Shown here piece after piece: positions 40,273-63,629 of a stretch of DNA of 64,000 nucleotides (within the stretch, counting starts at the first letter, position 1; every line of letters starts with the position of its first letter). Made by a program: the position numbers and the translations under genes. Under the pieces are notes generated by a model. That model had not been told where the DNA came from. It searched no databases and worked only from the letters and a program-made list of their open reading frames with translations. Source of the DNA: Phoronis australis (taxonomy: Eukaryota > Animalia > Phoronida); assembly GCA_002633005.1 (NCBI GenBank), contig NMRA01000129.1, positions 28,133-92,132 on the forward strand, in the 5' to 3' direction.

Positions 40273-43200
40273 ATGAAACATATCTGCTTGCTCCATGGGT
40301 ACTTGTTGACGGGGTCAGGGTCTAATGTATACAACAGAAATTTGGCAAGAGAATGGAAGAGACAGGGATACGCGGTGACCATAATTTGTCAAGATCCAAA
40401 TGCAAAAGGTTACCCATGGGTTGACGAATACTTTGGACCCAAGGTTGGTAAGCGTTTTCTTTGTTTCAGGAGTATTCAGTTAAGTTATCGCCAATTTTTT
40501 ATTCAGGTGTGACAGCTTGTCGAGCCAAGCGATGTTGTATCGATCTCTAACACACGTGCATTATTTTCTTAAAAGCCTTCGTCCTGGTTTTTTTTTTTTT
40601 TTGGAATACGGCGGGATACAATTTCCGTGAACTTCCATGGCGTCCCTAAGTTACGTACATGATTATACTGTTTCATGACTATAAGGAATATCATGAACTG
40701 GAGGGAATACGGTAGCCCATTTGACTGGCCTGGCTGTAGCTCATCTCCCCACGTCCGCGCCCGTGCACATGAGCGGCGCAGCACTGAAAAAAGTGGGGCT
40801 ATAACCCTACCCCCCAGCCCCGTATGGTGCGCCGCCAATGTGCAGTCGCTATCTTTGATGTTTTTGATTCAGACTCAGAGGCACCGTTGTTGAAAAAGTA
40901 ACAATGCCTCTACCACTGCAAAATCCAATTTCTAATTACTGTAATTTACCATGGAAATGCAGGTCGTAAACATTCCCTCTAAGCGATCATCTACAATTGT
41001 CAGGCTCAGTTTCTACTGTGAGCTAGTGATTCAATATACAGTAAGTATATTATAAACCATGCTGGGAACTGCTTTTCAATGAATAGCTCAGCGCTTGGGC
41101 CATGCCTAACCTATGGTTACTGTCCACCACAGAATGACTGTAGTGAATATCTATAGGTAAATTTGGATTAGGTACTTTCACTCACTGTGTGAAGTTATCA
41201 AGTCACAGCTATCAACACTGTTTTAAGTTGTCTGCTGAGAAAAATCTTAGAGCCTTCTAAAGAAAACAAAACCAAGAAATGGTCATGCAAAACTTATTTA
41301 TTTACAACAAGAACTCTAAATAACGACAGTCCAGGGTAGAAAACTGTAAAATAGTCCACGAGCAAAAATAGTCCAATTAAATAGTGTGATCCGAAAAAAC
41401 AGACTAATAACAGACTTGAAAGTGCATAGGTTTTTAGCACCATACTTACTTACCATACTTATCTACAATAAATAAATCAATGAAAGGTCTGGTAATAGTT
41501 AGGAACAAAACTGAGTACAATAAATAAGTTATTTCCTGAACTAATTAAGACTAAATCATGTTTAATTTATATGACTGAAACTTAATCCAAAATATCTGCC
41601 AACTTCCAAAATCAATTATTAAAAGATACATGAGTGAGTGGACTCAGTCCATTCAAAGTGGTGAGGACCTCGCAGTCCGAATACATATATGATGATTATC
41701 ATATTCCACCCCCAATAATAAGTAGAGCTGAGTCGTAAACCATGTGCATAATTGCTTTTGGGGCAGATTAAGGACATCTCTGGACTGCTAATAAAATTTC
41801 CCTCCATCACGGTAACTGAAATTACCAGAAAGTGATAAAATAACTGTGCCTTTACTACAACAAAAAACAACCCCCACACGTGCAGAAAGTGTGGTACAAC
41901 CTCATAGACGCTGGCCATAGCACATTGTTGTAAGTTCTTCTTGGGGGGTAACGTAGTTTTTTGTATGTGACTAGCTAAGACACAAATAGATCAAATTCAA
42001 AAAAAGTTCCCACGTCTACACTGTCATGCAAATATTTTAAAAAGGGTGTTTTGTTGCAAGAATTATTATACACATTTCTGTCAATTGGTGACGTTTTTTT
42101 ATTAAATTGACCAATCAGAGAGCTAGTTTTTATTGTTGTTCTGAATGTTTGCACAGTTCATCCATAAAGTAAAGACGTTAACAAGACTATATTCACTTTG
42201 GCCGCCGCCATTATGCCATGGTCGGTTGCGACACCTAGCGGGTGTCTGTGCGTCGACGAAGTACGCAAGACGTTGACTATGGCCGATTTTCGTTTGTCAA
42301 ATTCAAAATTGTCAATGAAGTGTCTTCATTTAAAATATTGAAAGCAGAAAAGTGAGCAGTGTAGTGGAAAAATACACTTAGACAAAATATAGAGTGATTC
42401 AAGAAAAAATTTGGGCAGCAAAGGTAATATAAATCATTACAAGAAATACATCATAAGCAAGGGGATGACTCTGTAATGAGAAGTGAACAGGCTAAAATAG
42501 GTGATTGGAGGGTGGGCAGATACAGAACCTGTAGGATTTTGTCCAGAGGGATCAGGAATGTAATAAAAATAAGGTAGATTGGTTGAAGAAGAGATAGGAG
42601 CAAAAACGGGGGGGCGCTCCTCAACCAAGGGCTGTGGGCGGAGATAGCTTTTCCCCCCCAATGTTCCAGGTGTTAAAATCATTTAATTAACAATTAATTA
42701 TTAAAACTTTCAACGCACAAGCTTTATTTTAAAATAATATTGAAAAATTAACAGATTCTCCTCCCCCCCCCAAACATCAAATGTTTCCTACGCCAATGTC
42801 CAAAAACTGCCATATTACGCCATCCAAACACGGGTCCAGATATTTGTTTCGTTAAGTCACACCTTACGACATTCTAGATTCAAGGAGGTGGGTCTGTGAA
42901 CAGTTAAATGAAGCATTCCCCAATATCGACTCAACAGGGGCAGATCCAGGATTTTTTAAAAGAACGGATCGGATTAACAATTTTTAAGACGGGTGGCCCA
43001 AGTCAACAATTTGAAAATTGTAGCTTTGATATAGCTAAAACCAAGAGAAAATGGGGGTCCTCACCCCTATGAGCCCCCCCCCCCTCCCCCTGGATTCGCC
43101 TGAGTCCAACTGAGGTGCTAAATCTTTTGCATATTTTTTCGTTCTTACACTCACAGTTTTTACATTTTTCTATCATTTTATCTTACGAGCTCCTCTTTTA

Positions 43201-46200
43201 ACTTATAAGGTTTTCTAATAATAATAATAACTAAAATGAGCCCTTAATTCAGTCAAAATATTTAGGGACTTAATCCTTAAATTACGGGCGTTGCATGAAA
43301 ATTTTCAATGATATTGAGAATTCAACGTGGAAAACTCACAAATACGCAGTAGTTTTAGGGAATATAGTGGAGTCGCTGGACCCCTAGCATCCTTCCCTGA
43401 TGGTATCTGAAATGGGTAGCGAATTGGGGTAGGTTGTGGTGAATGAAACTACAAGCAAGAGGGGTAGGGGATTGAAAACCACCAAGAGATGGAATTTCTG
43501 CCTTGTGCAGTGCAGTGCAGTAAACCTGCCTTGTATGCCCCCCTAAAACAGCCAAGATGCCTATTGAATACACAGTCCATTTAGGGTAGTTTTTACGATG
43601 TTATCCAGCTCTCGTCAACCATTCACATTTTTAAAATCAACTATCACCAATTAGTTAAAGCGTATTCAGCCTACGTTGGCAGGCCAACCTCAAAGTGAAT
43701 AATATAAGGACGCCTTATTACCTGACTTGATGTTTTAAGACCCGTGTCAAAACAAAAATCTAAGCATACGACATCGTCACATACATGTAGTGTAACCGGG
43801 TTTTCAAGGTAGTACACGTACTACCGAAGTACCCACCGATGTAAGGCTCAATATGCTTTTAAAAAACACTTCCTTCACAACTTCCTATGGCAAATTATCA
43901 AGTAGGTTACTAAACTATACAATTAATATTTATTATGCACTGAAGTCCATACCAAGATCATATAATATAGATTATTGACCAACGACAGCCAGGATGTTGA
44001 GTGTATAGGATCACAAGAAATAATTTAAATAACTAATAGCGAATAAATCTGCTGCGTAACTTAGTTTAAGAAGTTATATAGTCACCTTAAAATATGTTAT
44101 ATCCCTACAAACCTGACAAACACTTGTGCTGTAATTTCAGGACAAGCTACCAGAAGAGCCTCCGAAGACAGGAATGTGCCGAGTGATCGTTCCGGACATT
44201 GCGGGGCTCCTGCTAGTTTATAACAACGATGAATATGATGGCTACAAAGTGAAAACAATCCCGCACTGCACAGAGGAGGAAATTGAGAGGCATATCGCCA
44301 TGACTGCCCGTGCTGTTAAGGCGGTGGCCAATCAAGGGCCTTGCCATACGTTCCTAGCAAATCATGCTCTTCTGTCGCCCGTCATTGCATCTCGCGGACT
44401 GAAGGACACGCACATTTCTTACGACGTAAAAATTCATGGGAGTGCGCTAAATGTAGTTGTTAAGCGTCACCCGCATTTCAAGAAGTATGCTATAGAGGGG
44501 TTTATGAATTGCAACAGAATTATTGCCGGAACACGTTACATTTATCAAAACGTCATGGACATTTTTGCACCAGAGAGAGACGTTCTGAAAATAGACAAGA
44601 AGCTGATTATCGTTCCTCCCGGAATGGACCCGAAGGTGTTTGGACTGTCCGATGACAGATTCCAGAATATAAGGTCTGCATTTATTGACAAAATATGCAC
44701 GCATATCTCTCAGGAGCAGAAGGCTGGTAGACAATCGACGAATTTCAACTTGGACGAGATTGCTCAAGAAGTTCTTCAGCGTAAGGTTGGCGTGGACAAG
44801 CATCTTGTAGACCTTGGCAATACATACAATCAAAGAGTTGTAGAGTTTGATCTCCCTAAAAGATTTCCTCGAATTTCTGAGGACGAGCCAGTGATTGTCT
44901 TTGTAGGGAAATTCATTAACTTTAAAGGCATTGCGGAGTTGATCTTATGCTTCCCAAAAATTGTTTCACTGATTCCCAAAGTGCGTTTAATTCTCGTTGG
45001 CTACGGGATCGTTCGTGAGCATATGGAATTAATGGTGTACGCGTTGAAAACAGGTGAGCTAGCAAAAACTTCAGTTGATAATTTGGTGTTGTGTCGATTT
45101 TTATAAAAATGAATCCTTCGAGTGCTGTAATTGCAAAATATTCGATTTTGTATCTAACTACTCAGTGTGTTACTCGATCTTCGACTTCTTTCCATTGTTA
45201 ACTCAGTAAAAGCCTGCAAAATTAAGATTTTTAACGTTTTACTAATATCCCATTCTTTGGGCCACAAGATGAAATCTTAAAAACACTGCTACGGTTTTCT
45301 GAATCGAAAATCATAAAAATCCTATGTTTGATAACCCCTCATGCTAAAGTGGACCATTTCAAAAAATGCAATTTTTAATAAGGTTTGAAGAATAGTGCAT
45401 AAGCATAAAGATTCATATGAACCCAGTCAGCCATTTTTAGGGTCTTGCATAACTTTAAGGAGCCATTATCTTCGAAAATAGAGATTTTCTGACATCAACC
45501 CCAGCGCCGTCATGAACGTGGAACTCTCTCTGTCGGTAGATCCAAGTCATTGGTTTCAAGAAGTTTATCCCAACAATAATCCCAAAATAGGGTTTTCAGC
45601 CTTAAAACCGACAATGCCCCTTATTGCATGGGGTGAGTTGCGTTAAGCGTCACGTCAGCATTAAGCGTTAAACGTTCTTTGCAATACTGATTAGGGCCTG
45701 TTTTTGTTAATTTTGTACTAGTTCTAATGACTTGCGCCAGTGGATAAACAAACACCAAAGTGCAGCGAAATATGTGACTACTGACATCAATCAAACGCAA
45801 ACATGTAATACAATGACGGTCGCAGCAGACGTCTCAACAGGGGTCGCACAACCGGATGTACCACAACAATAACAAACTAACTAATAACTGGCGTTGCTGT
45901 TTGTATGTATACCATTCAAACTGATTATATATTTGTATCTGACAGGCAATCTCAAACTACTTGAAGCTGTTTCAAAATGTACAGATCAAACCGGGCATTC
46001 TTTTCTAGAATCGGGCGTTGATGTCAAACATTATTTTCGTCGACTAAGTAAGTGTGGTCTTCATTCCTGGTCTACTATCACAGTATCTAAGGTGTGTATT
46101 ATTTTATCAAACAAATTAAAATATTTTATTTGTGGGAGGAAGGTAAGCTTAATACTTGTGTAAATTTAAGTTTAGCAAGTTTTCATTTCGTCTGTCTGAG

Positions 46201-47809
46201 TAAGGCCTCCATTTTCTTGTTACTATCTCATTGCTGTTCGACAGTGCGTCTGCTGTGCTTGTAGTTGAAAATCTGTTTAATCTCAACCGCGAATTACGTG
46301 AACTTGACCCTCGCAAACTCGGTCCACGCAAATAACCATGTGCACTTTGAGAAAAGTTGCACTGCACTAGCGAATCACACGTTAATAAAATGATGTAAAT
46401 TTTAACCAACCTTCAATTTTTGCGATCTTGTTCACCGAACAATAATTAATTAACCATTTGAAACATTTCTCCGATTTCGTGACTCAGGAAAAGGAGAAAA
46501 TTGGTTATCACGGGACAAGAATTAAACAGATTCTTTACTACAATGAATACAACTTTCATCTGATTACATTTTACGAATAATTAACTCCAAGTTCACGCAT
46601 ACGTGATCTTAATTAAGCGGAATTCCAAGTTCACGCACAGCAAGAACAGTCTGCCTAAGTACGTCGAACAAATGACCTAGCTTGGTTTAGTTACAGGTTT
46701 AGTTACAAAATAAGCACTTTATGCATTTACAATTTGTTCGAACAATTTTCCTAAATATTAGTTGCCCTATGTCTGTGGAGACTCTTTCCTTTGTTCCAAC
46801 ACCATTTCAAAATGCAGGAGAAAGTAGGAACATGCAGTTATATAGGTGCGTTTTCTACGGTAGCCTATTAGTTTACAAAAGTTAAAACTTCGTATCATTG
46901 GCTACCTCCAGAAATCCAACCTCAAAATTCTACATTAAGTTACCATCACTTTTACAAAATTATGTCATGTTGAAACAATAATGTTTTGTACCTAAGTTTA
47001 GCTAAATCAGTTTGCCTTAAAGTTTGTTTCATGAAACGGAAAGAGTAACTCAAAGTGATTTACACACGCCCATGTATTTTAGGCCAAGAAGAAGCCTCAC
47101 GTATTCTCATCACAGGGTTTCTCAATCACGAAGAGCTAGGATTGCTGCTTCATCTAGCAGCCTGCTCTTTAGTTGTGACTAAATGTTCTGAAGCGTTCGG
47201 AATGGTGTCTGTTGAGGCAATGGCAGCGGGCGTCCTGCCACTCTGCGTCCGTCACTCTGGCTTAATTGACGTTCTGGACGAGGTGGGGTGCCACAATGCG
47301 GAACTGGAAAGTGCTATGGCGATCAACGTGAAACCTGGCGGAGATTTTGGGGCTTGTGATGGCGTTGATATGATGAGGGTTAGTATTAGAAGTAGTTTGG
47401 CATTGTTTTTTTTTGTCTGAGCGATCGATGTCATCGATGATCGCGATACCAGCAAGTTTATCAAAACAACAATAACTGTATGATGATGTTATCAACTTCG
47501 TTGTCTTTGTTTGAGTAGTATTCTTCTAGACTGGAAAAAGACGCTAAAACTGAAAGTATTTTTGTTCTTTTATTTTATATGTTCTGCAGAAAGTTCAACG
47601 TCGTTAGAAAAAAATCATTAATACAGAGCCTTCTGTCGTTTTAGGTCCTCCCTGAAAAGCTCAAAGCGTCAATAGAATTCTTATTTCCAACTAAAAGTGG
47701 AGGGTTGAGCAATAATTGTAAACGACGGCAAATAGCCAGAGAGCTGAGGAGCATTTCTAAAAGCACTTGGTCCTGGGAAACAGTTTGCAACAAACTCGTT
47801 GATCTTTAA
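40273..47809 (+). CDS. Glycosyltransferase family 4 (GT-B, retaining), gene 1, 548 aa; exons 40273-40443, 44141-45053, 45946-46047, 47083-47378, 47645-47809
   Basis: N-terminal HGYLLTGSGSNVY..LAREW...G..VTIICQ; KIHGSAL; IVPPGMD; VFVGKFINFKGI; EX7E motif EAFGMVSVEAMAAG; C-terminal WSWETVCNKL. Four GT-AG introns with consistent phases (0,1,1,0). AATAAA at 47953-47958. Confidence 0.9.
42935..43105. repeat. G/C-rich MITE-like repeat related to about 56225-56390
   Basis: Shared core CCAAGTCAACAATT(T/C)GAAAATT…CTAAAA(C/T)CAAG(A/G)GAAAATGGG. Confidence 0.6.
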
Positions 47810-50800
47810 ATTGGCTAAGGGCCTTTCGCCCTACTTTCCTTGGCTTCAGAGGATCTAAACTGTGCTGAGTACTTGACGAAACAAGAGCTTAGCGCAAGAG
47901 TCGATCTGTCTTCCAGAGAAAACGACGCCAGTACTGAAAGGTTTAACTTTTCAATAAATTAAAGTTTGCTATGGAGTGGTCATCTTGGCTTGACCCGACT
48001 GGTATTTTTATGCACAGTCTCGATAATAACAATAACGAATTATCAGTTCACCCAAGCTTCACCTACTTGTGGTAGGAGTCAATTAGTTTACTCATTATCC
48101 ATCAGCAAAAATCTGTAAGTGGTTGATATAGTGAATTCGCAACCGCGAAAGGTCGTGACTTCTGAACAGTGCATTTTTAAGACATTAAGCAAGGTGTACT
48201 GTACATGAACTTTTGTACCACTTCCCTTGACATGACGGTGCTAGTGCCTCTCTAGAAAAGCAAGATATTCCGAGATTAGATGAGGTGTTCCCGACTCGCG
48301 ATATTTTGGCTAGATTTTTCTCTCCGCTAGACAGCTATTGAACACTATCCCGATTCTTCCCTCTGGAAATACGCCCAAGTTTTGTAAAACCCTAGATCAT
48401 GTTGGTTTTCAATGCGCATGATATCCCTTATGTGAGGTTGTGCGATAAGATGGCGATTTTGTCCCACACTTTTTGCAACGCTTTTAAACCCGCAAGTGGT
48501 CTATTCCAGGCTGCTGCAGCCATGACCTTGTATTGTGTCCTCGAAAAACTTAAGGACGGACATTTTACCGCTGTTTTGTTGTCAATGTTGAAAGCTTAAA
48601 CGAAGCAAAACACTACGCTCAATGGATATTGAATTGTTGTTGAATAAGCCCGTATCTGAAGTCAGACAATGCGTACATGCGGCATTTTCCGATTCAAAAT
48701 TTCATGATTGGGCAACCCCAATAAACTCTGAAATATTTTCTGCCGAATGTAGTTTCGAAGTTCTGGTTGGCACTGAACGAAAATAGATTCATATCTCGCT
48801 AAGGAATGTTATGAGGGCAATTTTCATAACGCTAAACCCTCGTGAGAGACCGCCCCGAGATGGATGCTGGAGCAACTCGGGGCGGTCTGGGATCAAGCGG
48901 AAAAACCACAGGGTAAATCTGTGGTCGACGAATCTATTCGGTCGATTACATTTTATTGCCCGTGAAGCCGCTAAGGGCTGCCTGAAGAAATATGACTCGC
49001 GCGTTTGTATTTTCGCCTTTTTCAATAACATGTAAAAGATTCATCAACAAATTCCTCGTAAAATTCTGAAAACAAGCGTTTTTCTCCCACGAAAATCGAT
49101 GAAGTTTTGGCCGAGATATTTCACTTTCAGTCCAGGCTAGCCCTGCACACTCAGAGAATCGTCACACAAGATTACTACGCGGTAATGCGGTTTCACTGTC
49201 AACAAAGGAAGACGTCAAAATCGACTTATAATTGTCATTTTTAAACTATTTGCATGGTAAATTATCAAAATGTAAGTAAAATCGTACTCTATATTTTAAC
49301 AAGAAAACAGCAGTTTCATTTTGGTGAACATGTCTATAAGGACCTAACTCGCGCATGGTGGTGAGTAGTGAGTCCGGCCAACACGTGAGGATGGCTGTGT
49401 TGTTGTTTTTGCTCTCAATTCAAAAGTAGCCGTTTCAAAATGGAAGATGGACAGAAAATGCAGGCAGTTGACGAAAACGGCCATTGGAAGGAAGCAATTG
49501 AGCGGGGAGTAAATGACAGCGCTGGGAATTCACGTCGGTTTTCCTGGATGGCCGTCTGAGTTTGACCAGCTCGTCGAGCCGTGATTCGTGAGAGGCTGAG
49601 CCGATCGACTACGTCGGGCTCGGTACCTGGACCTGGTGAAGAAAAACGTAAGTATTTTTTTGTCATCCCTTATGCTCGCATGATGCTGTTGGCTGTATAG
49701 ATAAAGTATACCGTGTTTGCGTGGGATTTTGTGTTCATGAAATTACAGACTATGTACATCTACCACATTTAAAGTCAGAGAAACATTGTTACTTAGTGAA
49801 AGATAAACGTCTGAGCGAATATACCATGGTGCCTTCAATGTTGTGTTTGTTCTTTGTGAAGTAGATTTACTGTAACAAGTCCGATGTTGTCGGATTGAAT
49901 TGGTATTCCGGGATTTTCAATGCCAGTGGCAGATCCAGAATTTTTGGAATGGTGTTCGCAAATGAAATAATGTCAAGCCATTGTTTTAAATTACCATTTA
50001 AGTTTTATTAATAAGAGGTGGAGACAGCAATCTTCAGCCGTGTCTTTGTTACCTTGTTCTCATTTCTTTACATTTGTTTATGTTTCATTTCATTGTTTTC
50101 TGTAGATCCCCCCAACCCCCTTGCCATAGTGCACTCTCTGTTGACTGAATTTGATGACATAATATATTGATAAGCCATTGTATTCTGCATACCAGTACTA
50201 GCTTAACCCTTAGTCCTGCACACCTGGCCCTATTGTTCACTCTTGACTTTTGTTTACAAAATAATCCAGTCCAGTCTACACCCTGATTGCTTAGTTTAAT
50301 ATTTACCAGTGAGTAAACTGTATTTCACTTGTTGAACCTTTTCTTACTATCATGCAGCTCTTGCTTGACAGTGCACATGTACTTTTATCTCCTCTTTTTC
50401 GAACCACTCATTAAAGCGTTTTATGGGGTTTGGTTTCTTTTCATGAATGTTTTCATCGTTGGTTTCTAATTCGTTCAACTGCTTCCCAAAACTCCTGAGT
50501 CCTGAGCATTGAGCAACACTCAACAATCCCTCTAAAAAATGATGCCCTTCCAAACAGTGATGTGACCTTCTGACTACATGAGTGTAAGCTGTGGTACACT
50601 ACTGCACGTGCACAAGGTCATCAGCACCAGAAGTTTTAAAATCACACCACCAAAACTGTGACTGTTTACATTTCAGAGAGCTTGCCGTGACAATTTCAAG
50701 AAGGTATACCGCTTGACAGTTGCATTTATGTACACGTTGAAGCCTGGAGAATACAGACTTGATCAGGGCTTGGGATTTCCGTCTTTTAAGAGGAATTCCT

Positions 50801-53800
50801 TTTTTGGTGTCGATTTTCTCTGATTGGATTTCCAGTTTCCTCTTTTTATGATTTTTTCGACTTCATTAAATGTTTAGTTCAGGTAAATTTTACATCCAAA
50901 AATGTCTATCACCCAAACCTATTTTTTGTGTATCATACATCAGCTGGAAATTTCTCCGCTGTTTTTGTTATTGCTCATTCCAAGCTCTGCTTATTTTTCG
51001 TGAAGTAACTAGAATGGATTTCATAACATACCAGTTTATTGTACTGGATTCTTCTTGGGTTTATCAACTGTAAACTAACACTAATAGGAGCATAGGATAA
51101 TAGCCACCTGTCTTAAGTTCGCACAAAAGTAGAGTACAAAATTCCAAACGTAATTTCGAGTTCCAATTCCTGTAAAAAGATCAATGACAGGGCCCAGGTA
51201 TCAATTCCGGTATTTTTGGCACTTAATCGTGTTTGAAAGTGTTGTACTGTGTTTGGAAATTTGTTTGAAAAGCTTTTTTTTTTCTGCTGAACAGCGTATG
51301 ACCTTACTGGATTTAAGGGCCCCACCAGAGCATTTATTAGTGTGCCCTCCACTCATTTCCAATGTTCTATGTATATCAAATGCTTTGAGATGCCAGCAGG
51401 GTAGTATTCTGCATGCAGCTTTGTTGACCATTGTGGTCAGTGAGAATGTCCTACTCACATGTGTATGAATGCATAGTGTGTGCACCTCATTCATGTACCA
51501 CACCAGTATTGCCTGTGTGGTTATGGAAATGTGTAAGCTGCTTGTGTTGTATGGGCATTGTTGAGCTTGAAATGCTAGTTTTACTCCTATAAAACTAGGG
51601 ATGTATTTATTGCGACATGTCTCCGTTATTGTTGTTACTAGTTTATTGCTTAACCAGTGTATCTATTTTGAATATTCTTCAAGCCTTGGATGACTGATCT
51701 TTTCAGTTTAGGATAGTTATTGTTTGCATCCCAAGAAATGAATTACATACTGTCTTTTTTAGTATTTTTATTCAGTGACTCCTGGTGTGGTTTTGAAAAT
51801 GGTTGTTTTTTAGGCTGAAATGCAGATTTTTTACCAAGTTCTGCAATGACCCTGTCATTTCCACATGGTTATCTTGAAAAGCAAATTCTTGTATACATAT
51901 TATTGTCATCTTGTGAGGTGTGCAATTTATTGCGGTTTTCAGTGACTGGTTCCACCAGGGATAGCAGTATTGTGCACCTACCGGTACTTTGCTCAAACCC
52001 ATGTTTCATATTATTATATTGATAACTTTTCCTCGTGAAGGTAGTGATCTCAGCAGTTATATCACTTATGGTGTTTTGTCAAGTAGTAGAACCTTGTACT
52101 GCTATGACACAAATTTTGAAGGTTTCTATGTTGTAGTTAAGTCCCACTTTAAATATTTTGCTCACCATGTGAGTTATTGTTTACATGGAGGGATTCATAC
52201 TTATGGATGATCTCATCAGGGATTGCATGTAACACTATTTGGGTGTGTATATTTGTTACATGTTCATTGTATAAAGTGTATTGTTTATATTGCAGAGTTT
52301 ATAATTGTTAGTTAAAAAGATTTCGGTAGGTTATCTCAACAGTGCTTAGTGCATGTTTTGCTCATCCTGTGAAATGTAATATTTATACTGAAGAGTTTAT
52401 CATCGCTAGTGCCTGTGTCCCTTATTGCTTTTCCCATAGTATGAACAACTAGTCATGTTAACGTTTGAAATTCTCATGTACAATATATATTACACTATTC
52501 CGAAATCTTACACTTATTTTCATTGCCCAAGCACTAATCTGAAGAGTGGCCTACTAGTTATGTGGAATGCGCACAATGCATTGTTAAAGCGAGGTGATCG
52601 TATGCCGCTGGGTTTTTGTTTTCTTACTCTTTGTGAACGCAGTGCCTGTAATTCGCATTTATTCCTAAGTTTATGCAATCATTTTAAATTACAAAACATG
52701 AAACCCTGGGAACCGGTGGGGCAGTTAAATTTTGACATCGACAATATATACGTGTCATTTGAAGTAGTAGCCCGTTGTAGGGTGCCACGACCAAAAATAT
52801 GGGTACACATCACATGTTTAACCACAAACAACAAGTGAAAGAGTTACTTTTTCAGGTAAGCGACGCGTTGCGCGCTTTGGTTGTTTTTGTCCGTTTTAGG
52901 TGGCAAGTGGCGCTTTTTTCTTTGACGATTTCGCTGAGGTACGTTTCAGAAAATCGTACTGTAGGCCTAAGTCATTTTTTCTGTGCCAGTTCATTTAGGT
53001 ACACAGCAACTGAAAAAATGGATAAATCACGTCATTTTAAATCTCCATATCGCTCCGTTATGGCCACTTCGACTTGGATGGATTTTGGCTCTTTCAAACA
53101 CTCCTCCATGCTCTATTTTTTGAAGTTCGTTAACGAAAACGCGTACCAGGATGTAAGGTTCGTGCCCTCCCCCTCGAGTTTTAGTTGGTAATTTTGACAT
53201 GAAGATGATGGTGATATTTATGCGTTCCTTGACGAGAATTCCAGCAAGTCAAGTTTTGCCTAATTCAGCTTTTCATTCATTTTTATACCGTGTATGGTCG
53301 CTGGCAAAATAAGATACCATCAAGATTTTAGTCTAGATGTTTCCTAACTCGATTTTTAGCCATAACACTGAGCGCGCAAGAGAAGACGGAACATATTTGC
53401 GACGTTTCGTTTACTCAAAGTTAATGAGCCTAAACGTCAGAAAATATTTGTTTTCTCTTTCTCGCTTATAATGATTTTCAAGGGTTTCCGTTATTCAATT
53501 TCGGCAAGGTCGTCGCTTTCTCGCAAAACTACCGATTGGATGATCAATTACGCACTTATTTACTCTCCGTTTTAACGTTGATCATCGTCAATACACCTCC
53601 AAAAATTGCACATCGTCTTTGCGCAAACTACATTGAGATTTAAGTCTCCCGAAAAAAGTTGACGATCGGATAGTGTTTAAAAGTCTAATTCTAAATTTCT
53701 CCAGTTAGTGCACAAATGAAGTAAAAGAAAGTAGTTCTGCTTGTCGCGTCAGCTGTTGGTATCATTATCTCGATTTATGACCCACAACGCGTGACTGGAC

Positions 53801-54076: not shown

Positions 54077-57000
54077 CATAGGCGGATTTAGGGGGGGGGC
54101 AGGTAGCCCCCCCCCCCCTGGCTGCCGTAAGCAAAAATGGAACGGCAACAGCGTGAAGCGCGAGGAAATATTTACTAAGCAACTAGGACGAGGAGAAGTG
54201 GGTTCCCCAGATCCGGTCCACATACCCGGCTCCCGCAACTTTGGGCCTGCGCTGCACATACAATCGCACTTTACATCACCAGAAATTCGTGAACTAGGCC
54301 ATCCGCAAGGTGGCGATCGTCGTGTGAGTGTTAGCCAATCACAGCCTAGGTCAGAGGTCAGTTCTCTTGTTTTGCTATTTACACTCACGAAGGAGGTGAT
54401 CGACAAGAATTGAAATTAACTTGAAAGTTTGGTGGAATGTGATATTGATATCACAGAATCTAAACTACCGAAGCACGTCGAGACTGTGGGCGAGGAATTT
54501 CGGCAAGGTGAACGTGTCAAAGCTTGAGGAAAATCGAAAACAGTGAGTATAAACATGCCAGGCGTAGCTGGTGTAGCGGCACAGCTCAGCTGATTCAGTG
54601 ACTGACCAGCCGAGTTGTTGCTGCACACAATTACTTAATGATTATACTGTCGATTTATTGTTAACTATTTTATAGTTGCAATGGTCTGTGATACACTGTA
54701 TGTGTTTCAATGTTTGCCTTTTTATGTCTGTTACACTTTCCCACTCAACGACTTCATTTCTGCACGTATGTACAATGTAGGCCTACTATTGAACTTGCAA
54801 AACAAGCACAGCTGTGTGACCTCAGTCCTCATGCAGGCTGTGTCATAAGGTCAGCATTATGGCATTGTGCAGCAAAACAACTTAATTTCCATTCAGACTA
54901 ACAAAATGCCGATGTGGTTGATTTAGTCTATAAATCTGGAGATTCTGCTGCTGATACGTTGCTTTTATTTTTAGGGTGGCTGGACATTTAGCTTACATAT
55001 ATTCGCCAGAGAGACCGCAGTTGGGAAACAGAGTGCCTTTAACACCAGACTTCACCCCTCTGTACACCAAGCTATTGCTCCCTCTCAAAATCAAGAGGCG
55101 GTGAAAAAGAGCACTTTTTGCAGTATTGTAGTGACCATTGGTAGATGATTCCAATCTTAGCCTTAGGGTAAAGTCGGTATTATCCCAACACTATATTCAT
55201 TGCATGCAGGGCTCGACATAATTAAGCGTGTACAAAAAGATGCTCGAAAATACAATAAAAAATTTAAGTATGAATGGGAAATTGACCTCACTTGTACAAT
55301 CTAACAGGCACGGAGGGGACGTTCAGCATTTTTTAGGTCGTCACTTTTTGCGAGTCCAAATACGGGAATACGAGTGCAGAATATGCGGTCACTCGTACGT
55401 ATTTTCGAGCAGGCATTTTCGTCTGTGTCGAGGGCTGGCATGAATATATTTGTGTTATTTTTTATTTTTTAGGTGCATCAGATGTCATCTATGACACCGT
55501 GCAAAAGTTAGAGTTGTATGGAAGTAGTGCTGATATATTTTAAACTAGATTTTATTTTGTTACTTGATCTCTTATGATTATTTTCACATGTGTTGAAATT
55601 CCGTTATTGCATGCTTGGTGTTGTTTTTTAGAAAAAATTATCATACGCCAACATTCAACTAGAAAACATAAAGGAAAGGGTTCCTCGTGGTAGAAATTTG
55701 TAACATTTGCATTTTTTGTATTCATTTATGATGTTCATTTCGTGCTAAGTGATGTTGCTGTTTTCACAACAATCTGTTATTGCATTCAAACGTGTCATAT
55801 GAACTAGCTAAATCTTCCATTCTAGTCATTTACTATTTAAATCTGAACTTAAACAGCTATTTAAAGCGGCATTGGTGGCATTTTGTATGTTTATCGTTAT
55901 AAAAAATAAAGTTTTAAACAAAAATTACTCATTTGTTTTTTTCTGGCTACTATATGAACTACTGTTTCTGTTGCTGGAAAGTGCATTCCATAATATTCAC
56001 TTGTACATTTACCGACGCAATCTGTTTTGAAACCAAACTTTACACTTCATAAGTGGATTTAGGCTTCCCTTTCGCACACGATAAAAATGTTAGCGACATG
56101 TCGTTTTCAGTTCCTGAAATCCTGAGCCATTTCTAATACCTACTACTGATTCAGGAATGATAAAATTTCGTAACATATTATTTATCTGTACACTCACCAG
56201 CACAATGTGTTTAGAAACCAAATGCAGGTGCGAATCCAGTTTTTTTAAAAAAGGGGGTCCAAGTCAACAATTCGAAAATTCTAGATTTTACATAACTAAA
56301 ATCAAGGGAAAATGGGATCCGGATCTGCCAATCGAACTGTGACGGTACGCTGCATCGGTGGATATAGGGGTCCAAGGGGGGCCAGGGCTCCCTCATTCTG
56401 CACATGATAAAAAACGGCACCGACATGTCGTTTTCAGGGATCTCACGAGGGTTTTCCTACAAAAATTGACGTCACGCCCCTTGCAAGGCTATTATGAAGG
56501 TTTATCCTTCGGAAATTGAGGTCGGGGGCCCCCATCATCATATAATTCCATGGCGGATATCCGTCTATGAGTTCCTTTTTTAATAAATGTGATACCTTCA
56601 ACACAGCATAAATTAATAAAAACAGCAATAAAATGTTAAAAAGAACTAGTACAACCTTAACCTAGCTGCGTCTCATGTAGTGCTCTACATGCAATAACTT
56701 CAGAATTCAATTTTTTTTTAGCAAAATACATGACCGACTGCTTCTTGTTGCACTACTGGGAATGNNNNNNNNNNNNNNNNNNNNNNNNNNNNNNNNNNNN
56801 NNNNNNNNNNNNNNNNNNNNNNNNNNNNNNNNNNNNNNNNNNNNNNNNNNNNNNNNNNNNNNNNNNNNNNNNNNNNNNNNNNNNNNNNNNNNNNNNNNNN
56901 NNNNNNNNNNNNNNNNNNNNNNNNNNNNNNNNNNNNNNNNNNNNNNNNNNNNNNNNNNNNNNNNNNNNNNNNNNNNNNNNNTGTATTTCTGTGGGGGAAT

Positions 57001-57114: not shown

Positions 57115-58562
57115 TGCTACCGGTCTCTTGAGCGTGGTTTCTCCAGGCATGGGTTTCGTAGATTTGCGGAGTGCGAGAACCTTGCGAAAACTCAAGATCA
57201 CTGACACAAGACTTCGCTGATATCGCTATGTAGGGCCTATAACAAGCGAGTATGAGACTAGCTTCTTTTGCGAGTCTTGACGTATGGGGAACTTATATCC
57301 CAGGGGCACGTTTCAAGGGACTGGCTTACAGTGTAAGTTCATTTTTACTTAAGACTAAAATTTGTTTTAACTTCCAAACTTTGAAACTTCCACGTCCGGT
57401 AAGTTAGTCAAACGCAAGATCTCATTCTTGAAATGGACTTGGAACAAATTTAAGTTTTATCGTAAAATTTCTGAAATTCAAGTTATTCTTAGCTAATCAG
57501 TTTTCTTGGATCTGGCCCCAGGAACACCTACCCTCACGGTGACAACGCCACCTAATATGTGGATGTGGAAAACAATAGTGAAGGATTGCAGTTTTGCTTC
57601 CGCTTATGTTAAGAGGTTAAATAAACATTTGCTGTAGATTCGTCCAATGAAAATTACATGCATGAATACTGATGTAGTTATCAAATCCCATGCCATTGTT
57701 GTATTCGGAATAAAAAAGTGGCTGAAGCTGGTGCTCGTATTTATAACTACTATGTAAGAAACTCGGCGCTTTTCATTCATTTTCTGGAAATTCAATGCGT
57801 CTATTTGAAATAGCTGTTGTTTGAATCACAAGGAAATAACATTTGGTATTTTTAGTGAATAACTCTGGCTTTGCTCGACACCTGAGACAACAGACGGCAA
57901 AGGAACATGCCAGCATCAATGTGCGTATGCTGGGTGCCAAGACTTGCGGCTCGCGAGTAACGACAATAAGGACCCGCGAAGATGATGTTCCAAATTCTCA
58001 GATCTTTGTTAATTGTTTTTTCCTTCTCCCAAAATCCCAAATCTTATTTTTTGAGAGTTAAGAGGTCTGGTGAATGAGAATTTTCAAGTCGCCTGTTTTT
58101 TGGGTTGTGATGGCAAACGAAATTGTTTTGAAAGTAATGTGAAAGTTGATTGCGTAAAAACTTGTAGTATATTTTCAAGAAGCATATACCAAGCGTGCCT
58201 CCAAGCAGAAGTATTTTTGAAATTTGCATGTTGTATTTGCAAAATATTGTGATTATTATTAAATACCCACTTCGTGATACATCAAGTACCTGAGTATAGA
58301 TCAAGAAGCAGTAAATCGTAGTGCGGCAGGGCAAATAAGGGCAGTTGTTTCTCGAGTACGTCACAGACTTGTGAAACTTTTGTTCCCATCACTGAGAATA
58401 CATGTATGTTCTGACCAGGATGAAGACTCGTTAAACGTTATGCCCAACTAGAGCTTTAATGTTTAATAAAAGTTACATTTTGACTTGTTATACTAAATAC
58501 CTTCAGCATTCATTTTTTTATTTTTTGGCAATGGGAATGGGGTTAGGATGTACATTAGATTT

Positions 58563-58807
58563 CATGTGCGCACCCAGCCTTCAATATGGGGGCTCGAATT
58601 TTTTACCTCGTGGACATTTTGGTAACAAAAAGGCCGGCGGACTAAAAAAATAAAAATCGGGGCCACTACTGTGAATTGCGCGTTTGTGCTTGTTTAGTGG
58701 ACTTTTGTCTCATTTTTGTTTCTCAGAGGCGGACCTTTTTGCCCACGTCGCCAAGTGGGGGGGGCTCGTTCGAGCCTCCCGAGCCCGGCCCCCTGGGTGC
58801 GCGCATG
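58563..58807. mobile_element. CATG-ended MITE (same family as 26684-26951)
   Basis: CATGTGCGCACCCAG ... CTGGGTGCGCGCATG. Flanks GATTT/GTTTT. Confidence 0.72.
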
Positions 58808-59029
58808 GTTTTGCATTTTCTTACTTTTTCAGGTTTCAGTTAGCTAATATGAATCGAATACCATAAAATCTTGCTAAATAGGCACTTTTTATGCCAAATA
58901 GTGGCAACTTTTTTAATTTTGAAGAAAAATTACTTATTTCTAAGTTTCCCGCCAAATGATTCAATGAGTGGAAGACGGCTGGCCGCTTGACAATCATTTG
59001 CAATGTCGTAACACTGCAGGTCAGAAGAC

Positions 59030-59345
59030 AATGACAATATTAGGCGAGAATTGGACAAGTATTATGCAGACAGAGAGGAGAGTGGATACGGGCACTTATA
59101 CTCAAGTACTTGAAGAATCACTGCAGACAATGAATTCGATTTCCCATTTAGCGAACTTTCGTCGGGTTTCAGGCCGTATGAACTCGACCCACTTGCACGA
59201 GAAATGGCATATGTGAGCCACAACCAACTCTACCAAGTGGTGGTCACTACTCACAAAATTGACACTTAATAATTACTGACAAAGGCCACAGCCAACCTGG
59301 GTTACTCGTATTCACTATTGCCGTGATGGAATGAGCACAGTCTAA
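59030..59345. repeat. Dispersed repeat, copy 2 (inverted relative to 3550-3870)
   Basis: AGGCCGTATGAACTCGACCCACTTG…CCTGGGTTACTCGTATTCACTATTG…GGAATGAGC. Confidence 0.8.
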
Positions 59346-59479
59346 ACACAATATGCATAAGCCTACTTGTAGTAGCACTCGATCTGGGTCGGGGTCCAGG
59401 GCCTGGCATCACTCGCTCTAGAATGGAAACAGTTTGTTCGTTATTTACAAAATTTGCAAATGCACTTACTTGGTCGGTG

Positions 59480-59959
59480 AGTCCTTCATTGTAACGCCGC
59501 TTATGTGTGTGGTCGAAACACGATTCTTTGAAATATGCCGATCAAAGTGTGGCTTACGCCAAACTGAATCTCATGTTCCACACTGACACTCCACACTCTT
59601 GTGCGCCGCCCATGACAAACCGATGCCATTTTTGTGCAACTTTCACGTATTTAGGAAATTTGAACACTAAGACGTTCACAGTCAAGTTGTTGTTACCACA
59701 GTTTCCACAAACGCACCTTTTCATGTCTGAAAAAGACGGCTCCACGCGGACTTTCTTCACAACTCCTCAGTATCGCACTGGTAAAACAACAACGGCTGAG
59801 GCGGTCTTCCATCCATTGCGTACAAACTCGACTACAGAAAAATATATTTTTAAAATTTTCAGATTGTTTCGTAGCAACAGGTGTATTAAAGGCTATTAAA
59901 TCTGTTAAGAGGTAATAATAAAATTCCTTTTTGAGACACAGGGTTATGGTGGGAACTCT
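59480..59959 (-). mobile_element. Kolobok-like transposon 5' end with THAP remnant
   Basis: Minus strand TTAA|AGAGTTCCCACC terminus. From ATG 59724: MKRCVCGNCGNNN…VFKFPKYVKVAQKWHRFV…ATL*SAYFKESCFD (decayed CxxHF). Confidence 0.72.
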
Positions 59960-60585
59960 TTAAGGACAATTCTAAAACAGTGTAACTGTGTCTGATGGCT
60001 TACATGATTTCGGTTTCGTTGTGACCGACAGATGGCTGCAGTCACGGAAGTATAGAATTTTCAGGTTGCGTAGCGGTCATCATTGTGTATATACTCGTAG
60101 TTTATTTCCTTGTTTGTCGAGAAATCTCCATTTACTTCAGCTGCAATTAATTTTAACACGACTTTTCAACGTTACTACACAACTGCAATTACTTCGATCG
60201 TCATCTTGAATTGTTATCGGCAACACGGTTTACTCCGTAGGTCATCTTCTCTCTGGGAATTCTCAAATATTTTTCGGTCGGCACTTCTGTTCATTTATTT
60301 TTAGTTTTTATCATTTTTTGTTATAAAAACATCGAAATGGAGCCTATATCACTGTTTACAATATAAACACATCCGTTTGTTACGCCACTCTATATACGTA
60401 CAAGTAGACGGGGTAAATCGTACAATTTGTTTTGGCAAAAGAGAGAAATAACTCAAAACATGAGCCACGTTTTTCATGCCCACATGCGCGAAAGTCTGAC
60501 TCTTGCTAAAAATCAGGTGCAGCCCGCTCTCAATGTTTGATAGAATCTTTATCAAACAAATGCACTACACTTGCACGATGAACTA

Positions 60586-60756
60586 TTCCCGGAAACGTAA
60601 GCTCAGTATCTTATCGCGAACATTAAAAATACTTGTGAACACTGTCACGGGTCAAGAAATTTTCGCTAGTGGCTGATCGAGAACGTTACTGACGTCACTG
60701 CTTAACAGCTTCACTTGAGTGACGGCAATTGACGTTGCCCGGAATCCACTATAAAT
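60586..60756 (+). promoter_or_regulatory. Core promoter of GT4 gene 2: STAT/GAS site, CRE and TATA box
   Basis: TTCCCGGAA at 60586-60594, TGACGTCA at 60690-60697, TATAAAT at 60750-60756, ATG at 60816. Confidence 0.55.
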
Positions 60757-60815
60757 AAACGAGCGTTTGAACAGTGGACACACTGTCGGCTTTGTGGGAT
60801 CAATAGGTTAACACT

Positions 60816-63629
60816 ATGGCCAAACATATTTGTGTGGTGCATGGATATTTGCTGTGTGGCACCGGGTCCAACATATATTCATGTAACTTAGCGTTGCAGT
60901 GGAAGAAACAGGGCCACGCCGTGACCATATTCTGCCAGGACCCCAAAGCTGGTTCGTATGATTGGGTTGACGAGTTTTTCGGACCAAAGGTAAGTAATCG
61001 GGCCGGGTCACGAGTACACTGTTGATACAAGTTAATGTTATCAACGGCAAGTTGGTTATCGGCCACGTATACGATGTTAGATTAGGCACGCAGGTACAGG
61101 GCGACTCCCGGACAACCTTTAAGTATTGCATGTCTCAGTGGTGTGAAGAAATTGCTGATGACGTGGATATGGCCGCCCCGCAGAGTATTCATGACCCTCA
61201 TGGGTCAAGCTACAGCTGGAAGGCGCGTTCAAATAAATGTTAATATGAGTGCTAGCTCTTGATCAGGCTTTTAACATGCCCTTAACGGGATGACAGTTTC
61301 GAGAAACACTAAACGGTTATATAATTATGTATCAGCATGCCTGTACAGCTGTAGGTTGTGAACACGGAAATTGTAACTCCACCGTACGTTACACCCTGTG
61401 TTCGGCAGGCAGCTTGCTGCTAACCTGCCCCCTGTCGCATATTTGTTGTAACTGACTCATTGCTGGCGATCCGGCGTGAAGGCATTTGCCTTACCCACTC
61501 TTTATTTCTGAATGAACTGTCGACACGATCCCGCCTCCGGAGGAGCAATTGAATCAGAGTATATCTTAACCAGCAAGTCACGTGTTGCGACTTTTTACCT
61601 CTAAAATCGTGTCTGAACACCAATGTACACTCCGCAATTAGTCGCCTATAGTAGGCCTACGCCAGTTGAATACGACCAGGCCTAATGCCGGCGTATGCAT
61701 GTAGGACTGGATCTTAAAAGTCTAAAGATAGCCAAATTAACCAACTATGGATTTCAAATAAACTGCTTATACCTCAAAATGTGTCTGCTGTGAGCTTCTG
61801 GCGAAATCTCATTGTCATATTTCATGAAGCGCGATTTACTGACACATCAGAGGCGGGCGCTGATCCTGGAGTGTCCGACCCACGCTCGATCACTTTATTG
61901 TCTAATGCTGCAAGCGTCCGTATATTCCTATAACCTCGTTGCCTATGTTCATGCATCCGACCCAGTGTTGTTGCTTTCTTATATACAGTATGTATAGTGA
62001 TAATGCGCTAAATTGGACAAACAAAACTTTTCAAAAACACTTATAGAGGTAACTACATGTATAGGCCTACCCTTTGAATAGGTAAGCAGATTTATTTTCT
62101 TTGCTTATTAAACGAATTAGGCTATGGAGTTATAGTACAGTTCACTTTGATTTGCAACCTTGTAAATCAATTGAATGTACTTTATTTATGTAGATGCCAT
62201 ATTAATGTTGACTACTTATTATTTTGAAAAATGTGTGGGTTTTCTGCGTCAGTTTACCGAAGCTATTGGCAAAGGTTATCTGGGTAACCCGGCGAGGCCC
62301 AAAAATCCTGGTTCTCATGTTTAAAACGTCCAACTCGGGGTATTTTAGGACACGTCGGCAGATAAAGCTGTCCAGATAAAGCTGCCTAGTCGAAGTGAAA
62401 ACTTGAACCGGGAAAGGTCATCCAAATGGATTGAAACGTCCTGGAATCTGAAGTTTCCCTAGAGAACTTCTATGAATCCAAACGCGTGAAACTCAACGGA
62501 AAACATTCCTGTCGGAGAGACTATGCATCTGAAAAGGATATATGTACTCTTACTCCCCCTTACGTCCCAAAAATTGACCCCTTCAGCCATTATTCCAGGG
62601 TTTTAGGTCGTGCACCCGCGCTAAAACAGCATAAACTGTTGTTTTACTACATGGCCTCATTTTGAAACATGCAATTAAAAGTTATACGTAACGACTTCCT
62701 AACACGGTCATTTTTTCAGGACACAATTCCCAAAGAAGCCCCCAAGAACGGCCGGTGCAGAGTCATCGTCCCGGACATTGGTGGCTTGCTACCCGTCTAC
62801 GTTTACGATGACTACGAAGGCTACACAACCAAAACCATTTTCAACTGCACGGACGAAGAGATAGAGAATCACATTTCTATGACATCACGCGCCATACGCA
62901 CCATGGTGAATCAGTGTGGCTGTGACAAAGTACTAGTCAACCACGCCTTGCTGTCTCCGGTAATAGCAAAGCGAGCCCTCGAGGGCACCAATATTCCCTT
63001 TGACGTAAAGATTCACGGAAGTGCCATGACTTTTATTGTTAAACCCTATCCTCAGTACAAGAAATACGCCGTCGAAGGGCTGCAAGCCTGCAATCGTATT
63101 ATAGCTGGCACGCGTCATGTAGTCGATCAGGTGAACGAAACCTTCGCTCAAGAACGTAATGCTCTTAAACTCGACCAGAGGTTGGTCATTGTTCCCCCTG
63201 GCATGGATCCATCTGTATTCACATTGTCAGCAGACGTGAACGCAAGCATTAAGGCGTTCTTGGAGGAAGCAAAACGACACATCTCTAAAGAAGACAACAA
63301 AGGCAGAAGAGCGAGCAAGATTGATTTGTCTGCAGTCGCAGAGAACATCAAGAGACCTGGCGTCAATGCACACAATGTTCTTGTGGATTTGGGCAAAACT
63401 TACAACCAAAGGGTGGTAGACTGCGACCTTCCTGAGCGTTTTTTCACAATGACTGAGAACGACCCGGTAGTGATTTATTTCGGAAAATTCCTCAACACCA
63501 AGGGCATTGCGGAAATACTTCTGCAATTTCCCTACGTGGTCTCAAAAATTCCAAATGTTCGATTCCTATTTGTTGGTTTCGGAACATTCCGTGAGCATCT
63601 AGAAATGATGGTTTACGCTCTAAAAACCG
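60816..63629 (+). CDS. Glycosyltransferase family 4, gene 2 (tandem paralog, 3'-partial); exons 60816-60989 and 62720-63629, remainder beyond the window
   Basis: HGYLLCGTGSNIY…GPK|DTIP…GLLPVYVYDDYEG…KIHGSAM…VPPGMD…FGKFLNTKGI…ALKTG|gtaagt. Intron positions are identical to gene 1. Exon 1 has 39 of 56 aligned residues identical by my count. Confidence 0.9.

What the first reader, a model, noticed from the sequence alone, without database searches (positions are those of the whole stretch)
40273..63629. Tandem pair of intron-containing, bacterial-looking GT4 glycosyltransferases: candidate domesticated horizontal transfer
Seen: two same-strand paralogs with full GT-B motifs (HGYLLxGxGSNxY, HGS, PPGMD, GKFxxxKG, and EX7E in gene 1). 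They have no signal peptide or TM anchor, and their first two spliceosomal introns lie at identical codon positions and phases. Known: the usual animal GT4 enzymes (ALG2, ALG11, PIGA, GTDC1, GLT1D1) do not resemble this sequence. From memory, unverified: the HGYLLxGTGSNxY / LPVYVxDxYEG signature belongs to a prokaryotic GT4 subfamily. Inference: an old bacterium-to-animal transfer that gained introns and then duplicated, giving a cytosolic retaining glycosyltransferase system of unknown product (compatible solute, glycolipid or small-molecule glycosylation). The introns and the animal neighbour genes argue against contamination.
Basis: partly seen in the sequence, partly recalled or inferred. 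Interest (0 to 1): 0.78.

Follow-up and report, generated by a model that had tools for sequence, protein, structure and literature searches.

The report
Marine bacterial sugar-transferase kept by animals
Two neighbouring intron-containing genes of an invertebrate animal, one of them seen spliced in RNA, encode an unstudied sugar-transferring enzyme also found in a lamp shell, a marine worm, hydroids, corals, anemones, probable protists and scattered marine bacteria, so it likely came from bacteria long ago rather than recently, and it likely makes a small sugar compound whose identity is untested.

Summary
The genes are real. Gene 1 (40273-47809, five exons, 548 aa) is intact but had almost no reads in three RNA runs. 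Gene 2 (from 60816, cut by the window end) is expressed and its first intron is spliced. They are 58% identical and share both comparable introns.

The transfer is not specific to this animal. The closest relatives are Lingula, Owenia and hydrozoans (gene 2: 55-65%), and intron 1 appears at the same codon in two hydrozoan fragments. The family also occurs in corals, anemones, probable protists and rare marine bacteria. All eukaryote-type proteins form one clade (100/99) and share an 11-residue insert that the bacteria lack. That clade does not follow the species tree: cnidarian monophyly is rejected. The tree root is not settled, so the direction bacteria-to-eukaryote rests on the insert and the all-bacterial outgroups.

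The fold and catalytic residues match retaining small-molecule GT4 enzymes (BshA, MshA, SPS), but it belongs to none of them, and no partner gene travels with it. The product is unknown; a small alpha-glucoside or GlcNAc glycoside is most likely.

The parts
40273..40443 (+). Gene 1 exon 1 (ATG; HGYLL and GSNxY motifs); phase-0 intron follows
   Evidence: no RNA support
44141..45053 (+). Gene 1 exon 2 (NH, HGS, PPGMD, family-specific helical insert, GKFxxxKG, GxGxxREH)
45946..46047 (+). Gene 1 exon 3
   Evidence: GT-AG, in frame; resembles the matching Lingula stretch by eye; full model aligns over 547 residues
47083..47378 (+). Gene 1 exon 4 (EX7E at residues 432-440; eukaryote-type 11-residue insert near residue 480)
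   Evidence: (PF00534 34.2 bits, cut-off 26.4)
47645..47809 (+). Gene 1 exon 5 with stop codon
48900..52800 (+). Abundant spliced transcript between the two genes (intron 49648-50676); ends not defined; longest ATG frame 115 aa; likely non-coding and probably not part of the system
56765..56981 (.). Assembly gap (run of N) between the two genes
60816..60989 (+). Gene 2 exon 1
60990..62719 (+). Gene 2 intron 1 (1730 nt, GT-AG, phase 0); same position as gene 1 intron 1 and, by protein read-through, a hydrozoan intron
   Evidence: 13, 3, 7 reads and 1 contig
62720..63629 (+). Gene 2 exon 2; the rest of the gene, including EX7E, lies beyond the window
   Evidence: depth about 4-18

Best explanation
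These two genes are intron-bearing animal members of an unstudied GT4 glycosyltransferase subfamily that likely entered eukaryotes once from marine bacteria, likely before hydrozoans and bilaterians split, and they are predicted to encode soluble enzymes that attach a glucose-type sugar to a small molecule.

Shown: gene structure; splicing and expression of gene 2; relatives in Lingula, Owenia, hydrozoans, anthozoans and bacteria; one eukaryote-type clade with its own insert; conserved catalytic motifs.

Inferred history: one bacterium-to-eukaryote entry; then either an ancient duplication with reciprocal losses or eukaryote-to-eukaryote movement, giving an intron-bearing lineage (this animal, Lingula, Owenia, hydrozoans) and an apparently intron-free lineage (anthozoans and an unnamed host-type group); loss in most animals; a later duplication in this lineage, with gene 1 diverging faster.

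Inferred chemistry: GT-B domain closure, retaining SNi-like transfer from UDP-Glc or UDP-GlcNAc, with His156, Lys319 and Glu432/Glu440 of gene 1 in the roles of BshA His118, Lys209 and Glu280/Glu288. The acceptor is most likely a small hydroxy acid or polyol, in one step without a dedicated partner enzyme, giving a protective or osmotic glycoside. My odds: active retaining GT4 0.9; small soluble acceptor 0.55; osmolyte or protectant role 0.3; bacterial origin with one entry 0.6.
For: Best BLASTP hits of the gene 1 model among 69 chosen relatives are Lingula (585 bits), Owenia (581) and hydrozoans (523-561), above the best bacterial-clade protein (481). IQ-TREE C20, 50 rows: eukaryote-type clade 100/99; window plus Lingula, Owenia and hydrozoans 100/99; gene 1 plus gene 2 99/92. 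FastTree on 209 rows gives the same split, 74 versus 77 sequences. The 11-residue insert is in 26 of 26 eukaryote-type rows with data and 0 of 22 bacterial rows with data, outgroups included. By motif spacing, 66 of 74 versus 62 of 77 fall in two non-overlapping classes; 8 and 15 rows could not be measured. Hydrozoan fragments P0185 and P0422 break from the spliced protein at the codon of intron 1. Named bacterial carriers span about eight phyla in 26 GTDB loci and are rare: close subfamily in 8 of 301 genomes of one order and 4 of 86 of one phylum. Models of a bacterial and the Lingula protein are GT-B (pLDDT 92 and 95). Top structural matches are BshA (Z 30-31.6, rmsd 3.2-3.6 over about 350-360 residues), SPS-like proteins and MshA. 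His, Gly-Ser, Lys and both Glu are kept in 206-209 of 209 sequences. The five BshA residues whose mutation kills activity, and the Gly that favours glucose over galactose, are described in PMC10361700 (passages).
Against: The root is not settled. A tree with the close bacteria as one clade was 4.6 log units better than the free quick tree (AU p 0.62). A root inside the eukaryotes, which would put the close bacteria within eukaryotes, is not rejected (p 0.40). With two long rows included the eukaryote groups were unresolved. Animal monophyly is only borderline rejected (p 0.049), and all tested groups were chosen after seeing trees. The protist and sponge-like labels are inferred; most sequences are unnamed. 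The shared intron is read from protein fragments, not DNA. Sequence identity to any solved enzyme is at most 21%, so the fold does not name the acceptor. No partner family co-occurs with the gene. Gene 1 shows no expression in the runs read and departs at 10 of 124 conserved positions against a median of 3.
Confidence: 0.55

Rival explanations
1. Old eukaryotic gene inherited vertically and lost many times, with the close bacterial clade derived from eukaryotes or merely sister to them. No transfer into animals needs to be invoked.
For: A root inside eukaryotes is not rejected; a monophyletic close-bacterial clade is as good or better; two separate probable-protist groups carry the gene; bacterial carriers are rare.
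Against: Every named more distant relative is bacterial, including Rubrobacter and a second subfamily in Desulfobacterales and Calditrichota. All of them lack the eukaryote insert, so this rival needs a gain and then an exact loss. No plant, fungal, vertebrate, arthropod or nematode name appears in the listed hits.
Confidence: 0.2
2. Animals got the gene twice or more from protist donors (eukaryote-to-eukaryote transfer): once into the ancestor of the intron-bearing group and once into the intron-free anthozoan and sponge-like group. This refines the best explanation rather than excluding it.
For: Cnidarian monophyly is rejected (p 3e-67). Probable protists branch between the two animal groups (88/79 and 89/91). 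The second group appears intron-free: L032 holds an unbroken 560-aa frame in gene-poor DNA with an LTR integrase and microsatellites.
Against: Support for the protist placements is below the starred level; animal monophyly is only borderline rejected; an ancient duplication with reciprocal loss gives the same tree.
Confidence: 0.3
3. The enzyme glycosylates a lipid, a protein or an invader molecule rather than a small solute, as PimA/PimB or the conflict-system GT4 domains do.
For: PimB' is also a close structural match (Z 29.2). One probable-protist group fuses the enzyme to a PH domain, a membrane-targeting module. Two of five homologs scanned as single-domain or near-full proteins pass the PF20706 cut-off narrowly. 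The roughly 80-residue helical insert could bind a membrane or a partner.
Against: The proteins are standalone, slowly evolving and low in copy number, with no TRADD-N, STAND or LRR fusion among the 100 hits of 532-2000 aa, unlike the systems in PMC8195603 (passages). Bacterial copies do not sit in polysaccharide or lipid operons.
Confidence: 0.3

Closest known systems
BshA (N-acetyl-alpha-D-glucosaminyl L-malate synthase; PDB 2jjm, 3mbo, 5d00, 6d9t)
   Same: Best structural match to the bacterial model (Z 30-31.6); His-Gly-Ser/Thr, Lys and EX7E with Gly correspond by motif to H118/T120, K209 and E280/E288 (PMC10361700, passages).
   Different: 14-19% identity; TIGR03999 29-46 bits against a cut-off of 273.7; about 150 extra residues; BshC absent from 8 of 8 Desulfobacterales carriers searched.
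Sucrose-phosphate synthase-like GT4 (Tll1590, PDB 6kih; Leishmania SPS-like, PDB 8vrf, 8uag) and MshA (PDB 3c4q)
   Same: Top Foldseek matches for both models and top profile hit in the PDB; soluble retaining GT-B enzymes acting on small acceptors (established knowledge).
   Different: 14-19% identity; MshA model at most 55 bits against 462.5; S6PP family in 4 of 15 carriers against 7 of 25 non-carriers.
GT4-conflict domains of bacteria and marine invertebrates (PF20706; Kaur et al. 2021, PMC8195603, passages read)
   Same: A bacterial-type GT4 proposed to have entered marine animals by lateral transfer, with a patchy distribution.
   Different: Those are fast-evolving, multi-domain and massively expanded. 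This subfamily is standalone, conserved (44-67% identity to the Lingula protein across alignment A4) and low-copy; PF20706 scores of 20-29 bits straddle the cut-off of 26.
msp130 genes (Chess et al. 2025, PMC11878542, abstract read)
   Same: Bacteria-derived gene, patchy in marine invertebrates, dated by conserved intron positions, with lineage-specific duplications.
   Different: A different protein. msp130 is reported as bilaterian-only, whereas this family includes cnidarians and probable protists.

Membership tests
GT4 (GT-B retaining glycosyltransferases) | Two Rossmann-like domains (GT-B fold) | tested here: met
   Models of homologs P0104 and Lingula P0001 match GT4 structures; the window's spliced protein itself was not folded
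GT4 (GT-B retaining glycosyltransferases) | EX7E motif plus conserved His and Lys | tested here: met
   Gene 1 His156, Lys319, Glu432/Glu440; in gene 2 the EX7E lies outside the window
GT4 (GT-B retaining glycosyltransferases) | Pfam PF00534 above the curated cut-off | tested here: met
   Gene 1 exon 4 frame 34.2 bits against 26.4; full homologs 49-67 bits
GT4 (GT-B retaining glycosyltransferases) | Retaining transfer from a nucleotide sugar | not testable with these tools
   Needs an assay
BshA (bacillithiol) | TIGR03999 score above 273.7 | tested here: not met
   29-46 bits for 7 of 7 homologs
BshA (bacillithiol) | Co-occurrence with BshC | tested here: not met
   5 of 15 carriers against 6 of 25 non-carriers; 0 of 8 Desulfobacterales carriers; genomes are incomplete
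MshA or sucrose-phosphate synthase | TIGR03449 or SPS model above cut-off; phosphatase partner | tested here: not met
   at most 55 against 462.5 bits; S6PP in 4 of 15 against 7 of 25
Glycosylglycerate-type compatible-solute synthase | Linked MGH1-like hydrolase | tested here: inconclusive
   In 18 of 28 loci of the distant actinobacterial-type subfamily with at least 7 kb upstream, on the opposite strand and within mostly one syntenic lineage; 5 of 15 against 4 of 25 genomes for the close subfamily
GT4-conflict (PF20706) | Score above cut-off | tested here: inconclusive
   Window exon 4 23.2, Lingula 19.9, Owenia 23.1, Exaiptasia 28.8, bacterial 28.5; cut-off 26
GT4-conflict (PF20706) | Fusion to TRADD-N, STAND, LRR or other conflict domains | tested here: not met
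   Gene 1 is a single-enzyme protein; among 100 hits of 532-2000 aa the only extra Pfam domain listed is PH
Horizontally acquired animal gene | Integration in the host genome (introns, splicing, host neighbours) | tested here: met
Horizontally acquired animal gene | Nested inside the donor group with a supported root | tested here: inconclusive
   Nested at 96/98, but alternative roots are not rejected
Horizontally acquired animal gene | Closest relatives are non-animal (positive alien index) | tested here: not met
   The best hits are other animals
Usual animal GT4 enzymes (ALG2, ALG11, PIGA, GTDC1, GLT1D1) | Orthology | not tested
   No direct comparison; none was named among the listed hits

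The most novel reading that the evidence does not exclude
An undescribed one-step synthase for a small glycoside (a glycosyl-hydroxy-acid or glycosyl-polyol protectant) passed from marine bacteria to eukaryotes and has then moved between protists and animals more than once, so that corals, anemones, hydroids, brachiopods, annelids and a likely mollusc make a bacterial-style compatible solute of their own that nobody has attributed to the host.
Probability: 0.2. Interest if true: 0.8.

Novelty: new variant of a known kind. Interest (0 to 1): 0.45.

Why it matters
Animals have few soluble GT4 enzymes acting on small molecules (my own knowledge). A conserved subfamily with intact catalytic motifs, kept by corals, anemones, hydroids, a brachiopod, an annelid and this animal, points to an unknown host-made glycoside. 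It can be tested directly, because the enzyme is predicted soluble and standalone and Hydractinia, Clytia and Exaiptasia are laboratory animals. Its split into an intron-bearing and an apparently intron-free animal lineage is also a clean test case for ancient paralogy against eukaryote-to-eukaryote transfer. Old bacteria-to-animal transfers are a known kind of event, and neither the product nor the direction is shown, which keeps the score moderate.

Tried and rejected
No whole genome is held for the window, so the rest of gene 2 and further paralogs could not be read; within the window no third copy was found.

The sequencing-run index listed no RNA holder for gene 1 exon 2; this is not used as evidence.

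A GTDB scan with the Lingula protein alone found nothing; an alignment query found 26 loci. A giant-virus or phage source was not found: 0 relatives in four scans of viral contigs and only 8-14% identity matches among predicted viral structures. No plasmid match.

Operon context of the close bacterial subfamily gave nothing: no neighbour family in more than 4 of 26 loci, and the 62 neighbours scanned were unrelated to each other. The conserved neighbourhood of the distant actinobacterial-type subfamily is mostly cytochrome oxidase, an amidase and an ABC-2 transporter, read as synteny of one lineage. Co-occurrence with MGH1-like hydrolase, BshC and S6PP was flat.

No Rfam match in 38000-64000. 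The VIA-align comparison was obtained only for the bacterial model; the Lingula model was compared by Foldseek. dS between the paralogs is saturated, so no dN/dS could be computed.

Literature: no paper held any of six accessions or gene ids of the family. Searches listed no paper on it. Table 1 of PMC4878875 (41 anthozoan transfers, passages read) names no glycosyltransferase but holds unnamed bacterial-origin proteins that I could not match. No supplements were read, and transfer lists in genome-paper supplements could include this gene.
Full report
OBSERVATION. Two same-strand genes are present. Gene 1 has five exons (40273-40443, 44141-45053, 45946-46047, 47083-47378, 47645-47809), four GT-AG introns and an open 548-residue product; gene 2 has exons 60816-60989 and 62720-63629 and continues beyond the window. 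They are identical at 209 of 358 aligned residues, and both comparable introns sit at the same aligned codon and phase. Identity by codon position is 68, 81 and 32%, so the duplication is old and the protein has been conserved. Exon pieces match Pfam GT4 models. Other genes in the window are animal-type: otopetrin, a methyltransferase, a prokineticin domain, a FAM69/DIPK kinase and THAP domains. The phylum is not determined; the otopetrin's best Atlas cluster is mostly molluscan and two unchecked notes on this genome call it a mollusc.

EXPRESSION. About 18-19% of each of three RNA runs and the contigs of a fourth were laid on the region. Gene 2 is covered at about 4-18 fold on exon 2 from one strand, and intron 1 is spliced in 13, 3 and 7 reads and one contig (likeness 90). 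Gene 1 has depth 0-0.6 and no junction (likeness 95), while a neighbouring transcript in the same call has hundreds of reads. Gene 1 is therefore silent or rare in these samples. It has the longer branch (0.61 against 0.19) and departs at 10 of 124 conserved positions, where the family median is 3 and the maximum 12, but it keeps the catalytic motifs. Between the genes lie an abundant spliced transcript without a long frame and an assembly gap.

RELATIVES. The best named hits to gene 2 exon 2 are Lingula anatina (63%) and Owenia fusiformis (60% and 49%). Searches and cluster look-ups add Hydractinia (two copies), Clytia, Exaiptasia, Actinostola, Porites and two Acropora species. Two further groups contain EukProt gene models without an organism name; one has PH-domain fusions, and its locus L028 looks eukaryotic. 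I read these as protists, which is inference. A group of 35 unnamed proteins includes the gene on L032, an unbroken 560-residue frame in gene-poor DNA with an LTR integrase and microsatellites; sponge is my guess. The close bacterial subfamily was found in 26 GTDB loci from Desulfobacterales, other deltaproteobacteria, Calditrichota, Melioribacteraceae, Victivallales, Acidobacteriota, Planctomycetota, Gemmatimonadota and Verrucomicrobiota. It is rare: 8 of 301 genomes of one order and 4 of 86 of one phylum, the centre genomes included. More distant subfamilies occur in the same groups and in actinobacteria, including Rubrobacter xylanophilus at 34% to Lingula.

HISTORY. FastTree on 209 sequences splits 74 eukaryote-type from 77 bacterial proteins. 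IQ-TREE with a C20 mixture on 50 chosen rows gives the eukaryote-type clade 100/99, nested among bacteria at 96/98; the window genes are sisters (99/92) inside a 100/99 clade with Lingula, Owenia and hydrozoans; anthozoans group with the unnamed host-type group (99/95). For that tree I dropped 21 rows of the 71-row set, among them a truncated frame with branch length 10 and an odd 380-residue protein; with them, the bacteria were one clade and the eukaryote groups unresolved. AU tests on the quick tree, with groups chosen after seeing trees: Cnidaria as one clade p 3e-67; animals as one clade p 0.049; close bacteria as one clade p 0.62 with a higher likelihood than the free tree; root inside eukaryotes p 0.40. 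So the tree does not fix the direction. An 11-residue insert after the EX7E region is present in 26 of 26 eukaryote-type rows with data and absent from 22 of 22 bacterial rows with data, outgroups included (wider count). One gain on the eukaryote stem is the simplest reading and favours a bacterial origin with one entry. Two hydrozoan fragments leave the spliced protein at the codon of intron 1: P0185, in the Hydractinia cluster, runs on for eight residues to a stop, and P0422 reads through 34 extra residues that start with Val and end with Gln, as a GT...CAG intron would. If the window is a bilaterian, this intron and the gene predate the cnidarian-bilaterian split. The DNA of those fragments was not seen.

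FUNCTION. AlphaFold models of a bacterial member and of the Lingula protein are confident GT-B folds with a helical insert of roughly 80 residues between the PPGMD and GKF motifs. The closest solved structures are BshA, PimB', GlgM, SPS-like proteins and MshA, at 12-21% identity. His-Gly-Ser, the Lys of GKFxxxKG and both Glu of EX7E are kept in 206-209 of 209 sequences. By motif they correspond to BshA H118/T120, K209 and E280/E288, whose mutation abolishes activity, and the Gly three places after the first Glu favours glucose over galactose donors in a related enzyme (PMC10361700, passages; matching GlgM donor-binding residues in PMC7137382, passages). No NCBIfam equivalog is approached. The bacterial genes stand alone, and MGH1-like hydrolase, BshC and S6PP do not track them (5, 5 and 4 of 15 carriers against 4, 6 and 7 of 25 non-carriers). 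A mannosylglycerate-hydrolase-like gene lies upstream in 18 of 28 long loci of the distant actinobacterial-type subfamily, a weak hint from mostly one lineage. I commit to a soluble, one-step, retaining transfer of glucose or GlcNAc to a small hydroxy acid or polyol, with a lipid or protein acceptor as the main rival.

COMPARISON AND NOVELTY. It is a GT4 by every feature I could test. It works like BshA, MshA or SPS but belongs to none of them. It differs from the conflict-system GT4 domains of marine invertebrates (PMC8195603, passages) in being standalone and conserved. Its history resembles msp130 (PMC11878542, abstract) but reaches wider. Eight literature searches listed no paper on this family; subscription papers and supplements were not covered.

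VERDICT. New variant of a known kind, interest 0.45.

Noticed in passing
window 48900-52800 (+): Highly expressed spliced transcript (intron 49648-50676, 95-260 junction reads per run) with no frame over 115 aa and no Rfam match; likely a long non-coding RNA, with much retained-intron signal in two runs.
   Followed up: partly
window 1045-2886 (+): Single-exon otopetrin of 613 aa; its best Atlas cluster is mostly molluscan.
   Followed up: partly
window 28023-33669 (-): Multi-exon FAM69/DIPK-type kinase gene; PF12260 matches at 29676-29981 and, more weakly, at 28023-28508, which may be a second copy or a fragment.
   Followed up: no
window 13491-14045 (-), 19822-20076 (+), 21519-22844 (-): A SAM methyltransferase exon, a prokineticin-domain exon, and a single-exon four-transmembrane protein without a Pfam match.
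   Followed up: no
window 88-363 (-) and 25088-25489 (-): Two THAP-domain frames, probably transposon-derived.
   Followed up: no
P0201, P0197, P0006, P0007: A probable-protist group carries the enzyme as a tandem double domain of about 1130 aa or fused to a C-terminal PH domain.
   Followed up: partly
P0374: Unnamed 380-aa relative that lacks the family's helical insert and has a long branch; possibly informative for rooting.
   Followed up: partly
alignment A2, columns 401-500: A second small insert of about 5 residues is shared by the Lingula/Owenia/hydrozoan group and the PH-fusion group but not by anthozoans or bacteria, which conflicts with the tree's placement of that group.
   Followed up: no
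window 62828, 62837, 63007, 63126, 63214: Read or contig variants in gene 2 exon 2: three change a residue conservatively and two are silent.
   Followed up: yes
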